DNA from: Octopus sinensis
Lineage: Eukaryota
Reading direction: 5' to 3'
Length of the DNA stretch: 64,000 nucleotides
Assembly (NCBI RefSeq): GCF_006345805.1
Contig: NC_043011.1
Coordinates: 15,884,464 to 15,948,463, forward strand
The notes under the pieces are model-generated. The model saw only the letters and a program-made list of their open reading frames with translations, did not search any database and was not told where the DNA came from. The translations under genes were made by a program, and so were the position numbers. Positions 58,887 to 62,837 of this stretch are shown one piece after another (position 1 is the stretch's first letter; each line of letters begins with the position of its first letter).

Positions 58887-59097
58887 TATGTGAAATAGAA
58901 AGATGAATAATCTTGTTGTAGATTAATCAAAAGTTAACCGATACCTTAGTAGCAAAAATCACAGCAGTAAACAGCACGGTTGGAGGTACAACCATCTGGC
59001 GTTGCAACCGTGCGTTGGTGCGGATAATTGAAATTAAAACATTATTGGTGAATTGAAGAAATGGAGCTGAACGCAGATTGAACAGAAATCGTTTTAT

Positions 59098-59184
59098 TTC
59101 ATTCTACACGTGTTTCGAAAGGCACAAATTACCAAAATCCGATTGAATAATGGGACCATATTGTGTCTTTCTCTTCAGGAAGAA
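59098..59184 (-). ncRNA. Minimal type I hammerhead ribozyme in the PLE pseudo-LTR
   Basis: Core CUGAAGA (59178-59172). Stem II GAAAGACACAA/UUGUGCCUUUC (11 bp, 1 mismatch). GAAAC-ACGU-GUA with palindromic stem III. Stem I UUCUUC/GAAUGAA. Confidence 0.85.
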
Positions 59185-59839
59185 AAAAGGAAATCCGTTA
59201 GAGAAACAAAAACAGAACAGAGGCGGAGCAAAAACCAAATCGAACTATGCTCCTAAGAGCCCATGGCGAAACTGTTTATCAGTGTATGCTGAGAACCGGT
59301 GGCTGAAGAATTCTACAGGTCAGGCATCGGTCAATCATGTGGGTGAGGGTGTATAGATGTTCTTAGTGACCGAGAATAAAGTTCTGACTATTTAAGGAAT
59401 ATTGGATGTTTTATAAGGGGCGAGAAAAAATCTACTTAGAGACGTGTGTGTGTGTATACTGTTCTATATATGTGTGTGTTGGCGTAGGGGTAGAAAACAT
59501 TTTTTGTGTACGTGTGTGCGTTTGATCGTTCGGCTGTCAGTGGCTACTGCCGTGATAACCGTTGGGTGGCAGAAAGAAAAAATATATATATATTATGTTT
59601 TATGTGTGTGTGTGTTCATCTGAGCCTGCCTTGTCAAGGAAACCCCCCGCTGTGAAAAAACCAAGCCCCGTTTGTCTTACAGGAGTAATTCCCTTGCAGT
59701 GTATAATCGTAGATATCTTAAAGGCTATTTCAGAATTTGTTACTAAGGGCTATGGGTGCCGGTATTATTTATAAACGCTATTTAAAAGCCAGATAAGTGT
59801 AACGCCGCCAATGGGGGCATCGAAAAGCCGACTGTAAGA
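59121..59839. repeat. Left arm of ~720-bp inverted repeat (3' pseudo-LTR)
   Basis: Reverse complement of 62117-62837; the differences I saw are mostly homopolymer indels. The same 68-aa ORF is reported in both arms. Confidence 0.97.
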
Positions 59840-60862
59840 GCCCGTTTACCATCCGGCCTCTGGCAAACAAATATGGAAGAGTTCGGAGACACAAAGGTTG
59901 CACTGTCTTCTGCCCCTATCAAATGGGAGGGCCACCGACAAAATGACCATTCCAGCCTGTAGCTTAAGTTCGTATCCTTCAGTCGCCATATTAGCTTACT
60001 GAGTCCCGTGGTCTGGCGCTTGTTCACGTCCCGAAAAGTTGCGTAATGATTGGAGACACGCAAAGACAATCTTGAGGATGATGCCCCTACATAAGTGAAG
60101 ACATCTAAGTCCGTGTAAACCTTGCATTGGTAGACGGCGTTTTTGATCTTGGAGTTCGCCGACGTAAATCTTAATCTGCTAGGATTAGTTTCTGAAATTA
60201 GAACTGCGTTCCTGTCACTATATTCGTTCCGAGACCTGCAGCCGCTTACTACTCTATTTTCCACTACGTCACTATTAACTATAGGAATAACCCCTGATTC
60301 TCCACTATCTATCAGAGTACTGTCATTGCTAGTGCCCGTGGTGCTGCTATTGCGGGAAATGATGCTGGGGTTGCTATTGGGGCTCTCTACCCTACTCCCG
60401 TTGTTACCGTCAACCACAACACCCCTATTTATAACTATACCCCTAGTGGGTACTCCCTGGCTGGAGATGAGATTATGTGTCACTGTACTGGCTCTCATAT
60501 CATTATTACTACTATAATTATTCCTACTGAGCATTAAACCGGAAGCGGAAGAGGCTGTGCCTCCGGAAAAAGGTGATAGGGTCTTAGTAAGTAGCCTATT
60601 ATTATGGGAGGCGATTATCTGGGCGAGGTTTTTAGTGTTGGAGAAAGCTATCCTAACTTTATGTGAGTTAACCGTGGAGTAATATTTGGAATTTCTGGGG
60701 AAGTTATTGGCGATGGCTTGTCTAAACAAGAGGGGGAGGTTAGTTCTAATCTGCTTACCAAAGGGGATTACAAACCATATATGCTTATTCCTATCAGTGT
60801 GATGGGTCGGGACGCCAGCTCTCGCACTCTGGTGGTGATTCTCGGATAAATAACGGGTCTTG
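59778..60862 (-). CDS. PLE linker + GIY-YIG endonuclease + C-terminal CxxC..CxH (same polyprotein as the RT, broken by 1-nt frameshifts)
   Basis: HIWFVIPFG..TNL..FRQAIANNFP..KVRIAFSNTKNLAQIIASHN; NAVYQC..TYVGASS..RVSNHYATF..TGLSKLIWRLKD..EWS. Restoring two single bases gives ..RQCNLCVSELFHILF..MVN..FRCPHWRRYTYLAFK* (TAG at 59778-59780). Confidence 0.85.
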
Positions 60863-60925
60863 GGTTAGTGTAAGACCTCCCGGACCGATAATTATCCTTG
60901 TTCGCTAAATTAAATGCGGGGGCGA

Positions 60926-62116
60926 CTACCCGGCATCCGCCGCGCTCCCGTCCTTACTTAAAATGTTAATGTTATTATATACGGCCCTATCCTGATGACC
61001 GAATGATGGCATCGGAAGGGCCGGATCAATATAAATTACCTTCTGCCTATAACCGGCCTTGGACAGTGCGGCGTTATAAAATTCCGCTTTCTGCATAAAA
61101 ATATCGGCACTGGCGGACAAGCCAGACAATCTTAGAGAGATGTTTTTAACCAAATTGTCTGTTACGGTTTTGGCATGATTTGAGAAGACACTGACATACT
61201 TCAAATTAGTGGAAGGCTTATGGTAAGGGCAGTATGAGTCGCTATTAAGGTTAAGTGTAACGTCTAGGAAATTAGCCTTGGTGAGTTCATTATCAAAAAC
61301 TATACTCATGCCCATTCTATTAAAAAACCTAGCTAACCTGCTCTTAGTTTTCTGCACTATTCTGTTCGTGGTGTTTTGCAGGTAAACCAGACAATCGTCA
61401 CGATACAGGCCGCCCGCGATCTCCGGGAATTGGTCGGACAATTCGTAGAGAATATATATTCCGACTAAATCGGCTATCTGCGCACTATCCGAACTACCCA
61501 TAGGCACATCAAATTCATTGGGAGTATTTTTACGGATCCACAACTTATTATCAAACTTAATAAACGATTTCCTGGCAACTAAAATGATATCTATCTCTTC
61601 TCTGGTGAGGCCAGCCTTGTTGTGAGCATGCCAGAGGGCCTTATTTAGCACACTAGGGTTAATCGAGGGGTAGAAGCTGGCGATATCAAACTGAATGAAC
61701 CTAGTACGGTTCTTATTGGGGATGGAAGAGAACCACTTCACTACCTGGGAGGAGTTGGCCCAGAGGCTGAGCTTCAGCTTGTTTACTAAACTAGGGATAT
61801 ATTTATCTAAAATGTACTTACTGATTATCCCGATATCAGATCTAGCAGGGCATATGAGTCTTAGCGCTGGGTTGGTGTGGAAGTTAGGCTTATGGTCCTT
61901 CACTATAAATCTGGGTTGCTTGGGCTAAGCGGCTGAGTTCTCATTTGAATTCGGTGTTTAAATATTATTTCCTTAATTTCCAAGTTTACCTTCCTCAGGG
62001 TACTCCAATTGGTTTTTCTATAATTTTTCTTGATCTCTTTACCGAGTAAATCTAGGTACTCCTTAATGGGCATCTTGTATGTGTTCCTGGTCTTGTCGGA
62101 CTGGACCAGGACTCCG
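60926..62116 (-). CDS. PLE reverse transcriptase (frameshifted upstream of 61903; truncated at 62116)
   Basis: Motifs KDHKPNF..LRLICP, QFDIASFYPSI, FDVPMGSSDSAQIADLVG, LYRDDCL, NFLDVTLNL, YHKP..SNH. The frame-shifted upstream part reads VQSDKTRNTYKMP..YLDLL (DKT/DKG motif). Confidence 0.92.
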
Positions 62117-62837
62117 TCTTACAGTCGGCTTTTCGATGCCCCCATTGGCGGCGTTACACTTATCTGGCTTTTAAATAGCGTTTATAAATAATACCGGCAC
62201 CCATAGCCCTTAGTAACAAATTCTGAAATAGCCTTTAAGATATCTACGATTATACACTGCAAGGGGAATTACTCCTGTAAGACAAACGGGGCTTGTTTTT
62301 TTCACAGCGGGGGGTTTCCTTGACAAGGCAGGCTCAGATGAACACACACACACATAAAACATAATATATATATATTTTTTTTCTTTCGCCACCCAACGGT
62401 TATCACGGCAGTAGCCACTGACAGCCGAACGATCAAACGCACACACGTACACAAAAAATGTTTTCTACCCCTACGCCAACACACACATATATAGAACAGT
62501 ATACACACACACACGTCTCTAAGTAGATTTTTTCTCGCCCCTTATAAAACATCCAATATTCCTTAAATAGTCAGAACTTTATTCTCGGTCACTAAGAACA
62601 TCTATACACCCTCACCCACATGATTGACCGATGCCTGACCTGTAGAATTCTTCAGCCACCGGTTCTCAGCATACACTGATAAACAGTTTCGCCATGGGCT
62701 CTTAGGAGCATAGTTCGATTTGGTTTTTGCTCCGCCTCTGTTCTGTTTTTGTTTCTCTAACGGATTTCCTTTTTTCTTCCTGAAGAGAAAGACACAATAT
62801 GGTCCCATTATTCAATCGGATTTTGGTAATTTGTGCC
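62117..62837. repeat. Right arm: inverted copy of the element's 3' end joined at the 5' truncation point
   Basis: The + strand reads tcttacagtcggc...ttgtgcc, which is the element's sense ORF end plus 3' UTR. It stops inside hammerhead stem II and is followed by (TA)n. Confidence 0.97.

What the first reader, a model, noticed from the sequence alone, without database searches (positions are those of the whole stretch)
58890..62837. Young Naiad-type Penelope-like retroelement with RT, GIY-YIG, inverted pseudo-LTRs and a ribozyme, inserted in (TA)n
Seen: RT and GIY-YIG motifs on the minus strand, ~720-bp near-identical inverted arms with 3' ends pointing outward, no evident TSD, and (TA)n on both sides. 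Known: FDI..FYPSI / DVxMGSxD / YRDDxL, the IWF.P...FP...KISYS linker and the terminal CNLC..CxH match my recollection of the Naiad clade of PLEs, some of which favour microsatellites. Inference: near-identical arms and breaks that look like 1-nt indels suggest a recent, possibly active family, perhaps not yet described in this lineage.
Basis: partly seen in the sequence, partly recalled or inferred. Interest (0 to 1): 0.85.

Follow-up and report, generated by a model that had tools for sequence, protein, structure and literature searches.

The report
Hydra-clade Penelope retroelement with two-ended insertions
This is a young, very abundant jumping gene of the Hydra group of Penelope-like elements (not the Naiad group); it sits in TA repeats as back-to-back pairs that nearly always join one long and one short end, which likely records both cut DNA ends starting to copy the same RNA at two fixed points.

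Summary
The element is real, but it is not a Naiad. The GIY-YIG endonuclease lies after the RT, there is a type I hammerhead ribozyme, and the protein has DKT, RW and terminal CxxC/CxH motifs without CCHH or IFD: the Hydra clade. The family is young (about 1% between long copies; 3,244 exact ribozyme-core matches; 2 of 30 long copies with a whole 895-aa ORF), and 117 of 119 sampled ends abut (TA)n. The window copy is 5'-truncated, with five 1-nt deletions that may be assembly errors.

Two points go beyond the label. First, the 3' ends fall at two sites about 146 nt apart, and head-to-head insertions join one long with one short end in 47 of 49 and 22 of 22 cases, never long with long; the two arms share one source (0.38% against 2.39% divergence). 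I infer that both target ends prime on one RNA at two fixed sites. Second, the family lacks the CxCx5C linker found in 81 of 84 relatives, yet keeps TA targeting and shows purifying selection on the nuclease, against the published idea that this linker aims the element at microsatellites. A new variant of a known kind, with a testable mechanism.

The parts
58678..58886 (.). (TA)n target tract at the long 3' end
58890..59034 (-). About 146-nt 'tail' between the long 3' end (58890) and the short 3' end (59035); folds as a long hairpin
   Evidence: fold z = -2.71, 1 of 200 shuffles as stable
59093..59190 (-). Type I hammerhead ribozyme motif: CUGAAGA core from 59178, long stem II, 2-bp stem III with palindromic loop, predicted cut after 59105
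   Evidence: core and palindromic loop kept in a 75%-diverged sister family; cleavage untested
58890..59777 (-). 3' non-coding region (pseudo-LTR region)
   Evidence: stop codon at 59778-59780 by alignment to L007
59778..60140 (-). C-terminal GIY-YIG endonuclease of Hydra type: no CCHH; terminal CxxC and CxH; two 1-nt deletions in this copy (about 59871, 59944)
60174..60564 (-). Ser/Asn-rich insert (aa 634-764), predicted disordered; its end holds the single cysteine left where relatives have the CxCx5C linker
60565..60777 (-). Conserved RT-to-EN linker domain (IWF...FP...KVRIAFS)
60795..61000 (-). First low-confidence insert (aa 488-557); two 1-nt deletions (about 60835, 60931); bounds estimated from codon counts
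61000..62118 (-). Telomerase-like RT and thumb, 5'-truncated (begins just before the DKT motif); 1-nt deletion at about 61924
62116..62119 (.). Head-to-head junction with 2-3 nt overlap
62117..62837 (+). Inverted arm: end of the endonuclease plus 3' region (unit 2674-3422); ends about 85 nt short of the usual short end
62840..62883 (.). (TA)n tract at the other end

Best explanation
This is a 5'-truncated copy of a young Hydra-clade Penelope-like retrotransposon whose insertions sit in (TA)n, usually as head-to-head pairs of one long-ended and one short-ended arm, likely because both ends of the cut target prime reverse transcription on the same RNA at two fixed internal sites. Shown: RT followed by GIY-YIG, hammerhead motif, TA flanks, two 3' end sites, long+short pairing, arms more alike than other copies, short overlaps at the junctions. 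Inferred: the endonuclease cuts both strands of (TA)n; one end primes at the short site and the other at the long site (both are preceded by a similar TTCAC..ATAAT motif); the RNA survives the first round, as these RTs carry no RNase H (my own knowledge), so the second RT displaces the first cDNA; the two cDNAs are joined head to head by microhomology. Tandem copies would arise from circular or multimeric RNA, with the ribozyme working as a dimer (proposed by Cervera and de la Pena 2014). TA targeting here does not need the CxCx5C linker.
For: Clade: motifs against PMC8557442; 642 bits to a profile of DKT-type relatives built without the query, against 49-66 bits for three Neptune-type proteins of the same genome; tree; top fold matches are telomerases. 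Targeting: 117 of 119 ends abut (TA)n against 3.3% of window positions; 84 of 87 in a second set. Pairing: 47 of 49 long+short, 2 short+short, 0 long+long (p = 4e-12 against even odds); 22 of 22 in the second set; also in older subfamilies and a 75%-diverged sister. One source: arms differ by 0.38% against 2.39% between insertions, lower in 30 of 30. The short arm reaches further 5' than the long arm in 17 of 40 pairs, which plain fold-back cannot give. Overlap of 4 nt or more at 21 of 41 junctions against 2% expected. A purified Poseidon protein cuts and extends both strands and starts at two internal RNA sites (PMC11167929). Linker: CxC..C in 81 of 84 relatives with an EN, in 0 of 30 family copies; shared variants in the EN are 4 non-synonymous to 8 synonymous, ratio 0.15.
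Against: No biochemistry on this family. In vitro, the Poseidon protein showed no difference in start site between the two strands, and initiation at a site not homologous to the target. 13 of 40 junctions are near-perfect palindromes, some with mirrored extra letters, which fold-back explains simply. Arm identity could also come from gene conversion. The junction overlaps are BLAST overlaps that may include mismatches, so the comparison with the exact-match null is generous. The selection counts are small. The window's own inverted arm ends at neither usual site. The tree holds no named Hydra or Naiad protein. The ribozyme's stem I does not form in the monomer fold (z = 0.24).
Confidence: 0.55

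Rival explanations
1. Fold-back: one cDNA is primed at the long site, folds back on itself and is copied to the short site; later deletions at the unstable palindrome centre shorten either arm.
For: It gives long+short pairs and identical arms directly. 13 of 40 pairs start within 15 nt of each other, and several centres are perfect palindromes.
Against: In 17 of 40 pairs the short arm holds sequence that the long arm lacks, by up to 1,254 nt, so each needs a later deletion. Lone short-ended copies and full-length short-ended copies running through the tandem junction exist.
Confidence: 0.25
2. Two separate RNAs from the same source locus, held in an asymmetric protein dimer, each prime one target end; or self-priming on an antisense template, as proposed for rotifer Penelopes.
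For: Overlapping arms need no strand displacement if there are two templates. A dimer was predicted for Poseidon. Arkhipova et al. 2013 read junction palindromes as antisense self-priming (PMC3846280).
Against: Several subfamilies coexist, yet arms were closer to each other than to the mean of other insertions in 30 of 30 cases. The antisense model does not by itself explain two fixed ends used once each.
Confidence: 0.15
3. The element is a Naiad.
For: Naiads share (TA)n preference, tails and inverted arms.
Against: The endonuclease is C-terminal; DKT and not DKA; no CxC, CCHH or IFD; a hammerhead is present. A Naiad-type endonuclease remnant in this genome looks different and gives no significant match to the protein.
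Confidence: 0.01
4. The inverted arm is a foldback assembly artefact.
For: The 1-nt deletion bias suggests long-read errors in this assembly. Short-read contigs did not show the junction (listing cut).
Against: The arms differ at 5 of 722 columns, end at different points, and each continues into its own flank. The same design recurs in 69 of 71 counted pairs, mostly with different junctions.
Confidence: 0.03

Closest known systems
Hydra clade of Penelope-like elements (Craig et al. 2021, PMC8557442), e.g. Hydra-1_Obim, Hydra-1_Amil, Penelope-13_HM
   Same: C-terminal GIY-YIG without CCHH; DKT; RW motif (RWL here); terminal CxxC and CxH; no IFD; hammerhead; (TA)n. The N-terminal half resembles Hydra-1_Obim by eye.
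   Different: Unit about 3.63 kb and 895 aa against under 3 kb and about 700 aa; two long inserts; CxCx5C linker absent; stem II of the ribozyme much longer than those tabulated; different ribozyme sequence from Hydra-1_Obim, so a different family.
Naiad clade (same paper)
   Same: (TA)n preference, partial tandems, inverted arm, optional tail.
   Different: N-terminal endonuclease, CxC, DKA, CCHH, IFD and no hammerhead in Naiads; the opposite here.
Poseidon PAc of Anolis (Frangieh et al. 2024, PMC11167929)
   Same: Two internal start sites that define a tail; AT-rich targets; hammerhead near the start sites.
   Different: Different clade. The tail of described elements is 30-40 bp, and the PAc start sites lie inside the ORF; here the tail is about 146 nt and lies upstream of the start codon. 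In the parts I read, that paper reports no one-long-one-short rule.
Adineta vaga Penelopes (Arkhipova et al. 2013, PMC3846280)
   Same: Inverted pLTRs with the tail on one arm, palindromic junctions, Asn-rich inserts between RT and EN.
   Different: Few copies and no counts in the passages read; explained there by antisense self-priming.
L1 twin priming (recalled, not read here)
   Same: Both target ends prime on one RNA and give an inversion joined by microhomology.
   Different: In L1 the two parts do not overlap and the second site is variable; here the arms overlap and both sites are fixed.

Membership tests
Penelope-like elements | Telomerase-related RT with GIY-YIG endonuclease in one ORF | tested here: met
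   895-aa ORF in L007 and L028; model's best matches are telomerases, E 7e-10. Pfam gave no significant hit.
Penelope-like elements | Pseudo-LTRs from partial tandems, inverted arm, optional tail | tested here: met
   80 exact head-to-tail junctions; pairs and tails.
Naiad | N-terminal GIY-YIG endonuclease | tested here: not met
   Endonuclease at about aa 775-885, after the RT.
Naiad | CxC motif before the RT; DKA motif | tested here: not met
   One cysteine in the first 200 aa; SDKT.
Naiad | CCHH finger in the endonuclease | tested here: not met
   One cysteine in the GIY-to-YIG stretch.
Naiad | Insertion in fingers (most Naiads) | tested here: not met
   63 aa from motif A to motif B against 66 in a Neptune-type protein.
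Naiad | No canonical hammerhead | tested here: not met
   Hammerhead motif present.
Hydra clade | C-terminal endonuclease without CCHH; no CxC; no IFD | tested here: met
Hydra clade | DKT and RWK motifs | tested here: met
   SDKT; RIRWL, with L for K, as in relative P0017.
Hydra clade | CxxC and CxH around the conserved E and N | tested here: met
   C855, C858, C883 and H885.
Hydra clade | CxCx5C linker before the endonuclease | tested here: not met
   Absent from 30 of 30 copies and from three older subfamily copies; present in the nearest relatives P0002 and P0003, so read as a loss on this branch. For this reason it is filed as a variant, not a plain member.
Hydra clade | Canonical hammerhead and (TA)n insertion | tested here: met
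   cleavage itself untested.
Hydra clade | RT groups with named Hydra elements in a tree | tested here: inconclusive
   Nested (100/96) among unnamed DKT/CxxC-type relatives and far from Neptune; the published Hydra and Naiad reference proteins were not in the tree.
Neptune | DKG, CX2-5CxxC linker and CCHH | tested here: not met
   Neptune-type copies in this genome have them; this element does not.

The most novel reading that the evidence does not exclude
The family is a natural record, in thousands of ends, of an unreported rule of Penelope-like transposition: the two internal start sites are used once each per insertion, one by each target end, on one RNA. That single step would explain the inverted pLTR and the one-sided tail seen across the group. 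The family also targets (TA)n after losing the zinc-finger-like linker proposed to do this, so targeting would rest on the nuclease core or on pairing with the RNA start sites.
Probability: 0.45. Interest if true: 0.75.

Novelty: new variant of a known kind. Interest (0 to 1): 0.5.

Why it matters
How Penelope-like elements make their tandem and inverted structures and choose microsatellites is named as an open question in Craig et al. 2021. This family turns a qualitative remark (tail often at one end only) into a near-strict rule with a large sample, and it supplies natural intact ORFs for an in vitro test. It also gives a within-clade case against the linker-targeting idea. As a catalogue entry alone it is ordinary: one more Hydra family in a probable octopod.

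Tried and rejected
Pfam found nothing significant on the fragments or the whole protein. Rfam found no hammerhead, only TA-driven noise. The sequence search of solved structures gave nothing below E 0.16. PF26215 is not in the library.

A Naiad RT from this genome for the tree: the one locus found holds an endonuclease remnant only, so the tree lacks a Naiad.

RT stalling at RNA stems as the cause of 5' break hot spots: not significant (p = 0.20). The cluster of 21 arm starts at unit 3260-3279 stays unexplained; it may be a transcript 5' end.

Expression: no RNA holder listed. One run only guessed to be RNA has a 2,918-nt contig across the ORF without the four deletions that lie in the stretch laid; I do not count it as evidence. 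The junction at 62117 was not shown in the laid contigs, and insertion polymorphism could not be judged.

Earlier scan findings: none. The supplement of PMC13282606 was not read; it may list this family under 'Penelope'.

Full report
Observation. The minus strand of 58890-62118 carries RT motifs and, downstream of them, a GIY-YIG endonuclease. An inverted arm at 62117-62837 matches 59121-59839 over 722 columns at 99.3%. (TA)n tracts lie on both sides.

The family. A search of the genome scored 40 of 2,313 candidates and returned 30 loci 96.7-99.3% identical to the window copy, the copy itself aside. Two of the 30 (L007, L028) hold a whole 895-aa ORF. A 26-nt piece of the ribozyme core occurs exactly 3,244 times, the reversed control 0 times. 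The head-to-tail junction occurs 80 times, and three pairs of junctions lie 3,629-3,639 bp apart, which gives the unit length. The coding regions of 29 long copies (one duplicate dropped) differ by 1.1% on average; the window copy's nearest is 0.43% away. The window copy starts at unit position 388 and so lacks the start codon. It has five 1-nt deletions. Across the 30 copies, 40 of the 54 distinct indels are 1-nt deletions, 23 of them in runs of three or more against 24% background; that pattern suggests long-read error, so these breaks are weak evidence either way. The host is probably an octopod. This is inferred from a named Argonauta relative in the same branch and from an exact match to a motif of a published octopus Naiad.

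Clade. Craig et al. 2021 (PMC8557442; main text parts 1-6 of 10 and parts of the supplement read) define Naiads by an N-terminal endonuclease and the lack of a canonical hammerhead. They define the Hydra clade by a C-terminal endonuclease without CCHH, DKT, RWK, a CxCx5C linker, terminal CxxC and CxH, a hammerhead and (TA)n targets. The protein has SDKT, RIRWL, terminal C855/C858/C883/H885, no CCHH, no N-terminal CxC and no IFD. All 107 relatives found have the same general make-up as far as they reach. A profile built without the query scores it 642 bits and three Neptune-type proteins of this genome 49-66. In a tree of 32 RT regions (the query, 28 of the 107 relatives, 3 Neptune-type) the query nests with P0002, P0003 and P0013 at 100/96. 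No named Hydra or Naiad protein was in that tree. The predicted model (pLDDT 80, pTM 0.78) has two low-confidence inserts, aa 488-557 and 634-764, and matches telomerases best. Such inserts are not unique: relatives P0002, P0092 and P0094 have Asn-rich ones, as do rotifer Penelopes (PMC3846280, passages).

Ribozyme. One complete type I hammerhead lies in the 3' region: CUGAAGA, a long stem II, GAAAC, a palindromic loop and a GUA site. A sister family 75% identical keeps the core with another palindromic loop and a GUC site. Rfam missed it, and the monomer fold does not close stem I. A short stem III with a palindromic loop is the form thought to work as a dimer (PMC4209133, first part and passages). 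Cleavage is untested.

Ends and targets. I took the first 100 of the 3,244 core matches, all in the first 83 Mb of contig C1. They resolve into 70 insertions with 119 terminal 3' ends: 58 at the long site and 61 at a short site 146-160 nt upstream. 117 of 119 abut (TA)n, against 3.3% of window positions. 49 insertions are head-to-head pairs: 47 long+short, 2 short+short, 0 long+long (p = 4e-12 against even odds). Of the 21 apparent singles, four hide a short partner arm and one has its partner beyond the stretch first fetched; all five are long+short. A second set of 62 loci, chosen for length or endonuclease similarity, gave 22 of 22 long+short and 84 of 87 ends at TA. The window copy is atypical: its inverted arm ends about 85 nt short of the short site.

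Mechanism. In the 30 of 49 pairs with 100 bp or more of overlap, the arms differ by 0.38% against 2.39% between insertions, lower in all 30, so both arms come from one source or were homogenised later. Among 40 pairs with adjoining arms, the short arm reaches further 5' in 17, the long arm in 10, and they start together in 13. 21 of 41 junctions overlap by 4 nt or more, against 2% for random exact matches (BLAST overlaps may include mismatches). Plain fold-back from the long arm cannot give the 17 without later deletions. Priming of both target ends on one RNA, once at each site, gives all three classes. A purified Poseidon protein cuts and extends both strands and starts at two internal sites, but showed no strand difference in start site (PMC11167929, parts 1-2 of 4 read). 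I put 0.55 on dual priming, 0.25 on fold-back and 0.15 on two templates or antisense self-priming. The one-sided tail is in print as a remark. I found no count or pairing rule in six searches of the open-access library; Arkhipova 2006 and Evgen'ev and Arkhipova 2005 were not read.

Lost linker. 84 of the 107 relatives reach the endonuclease. 81 of them have the CxC..C linker, two a shortened form and one a partial form. All 30 family copies have a single cysteine there; two older subfamily copies have one and a third has none. Shared variants show non-synonymous to synonymous ratios of 0.12 in the RT (7 to 16) and 0.15 in the endonuclease (4 to 8), against 1.04 and 0.44 in the inserts; the counts are small. 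Craig et al. link the linker to (TA)n targeting, while noting that Chlamys elements target repeats without it. This family is a within-clade counterexample, unless another family mobilises it in trans, which I did not test.

Verdict. A real, young Hydra-clade family and not a Naiad; a new variant because of the lost linker, the inserts and the long tail. It may be among the 30 recently active 'Penelope' families listed for Octopus vulgaris (PMC13282606, passages); I could not check that. The preprint 10.64898/2026.07.22.740005 was read in its first part only and did not bear on the verdict. Interest 0.5, resting on the pairing rule as a direct route to testing how these elements insert.

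Noticed in passing
window 56400-58660 (+): Decayed non-LTR retrotransposon with YMDD and a C-terminal CxxC/restriction-like nuclease region, R4/Dong-like by recall; it ends at the TA tract that holds the Penelope-like element.
   Followed up: partly
window 50543-52960 (-): Fragments of a CR1/L2-like LINE ORF, named by recall.
   Followed up: no
window 13200-13676 (+) and 24400-24825 (-): A mariner-like transposase fragment and another LINE fragment, named by recall.
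   Followed up: no
L144, L147, L148: Neptune-type Penelope-like elements with open 775-781-aa frames and a long upstream frame of 280-370 aa overlapping the RT frame.
   Followed up: partly
L153:818-1400: Naiad-type endonuclease remnant with no RT found downstream.
   Followed up: yes
L023:4690-5090: A 75%-diverged sister family, itself a short+long palindrome in TA, beside a copy of the young family.
   Followed up: partly
window about 59265-59285 (unit 3260-3279): Hot spot where 21 sampled arms begin; not explained by RNA stems; may mark the 5' end of a short transcript.
   Followed up: partly
window about 58973 (unit 3560-3579): Second cluster: six long arms begin at the 3' base of the hairpin in the tail.
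   Followed up: partly
window 63046-63287: Another very high-copy short repeat just right of the element, by contig depth.
   Followed up: no
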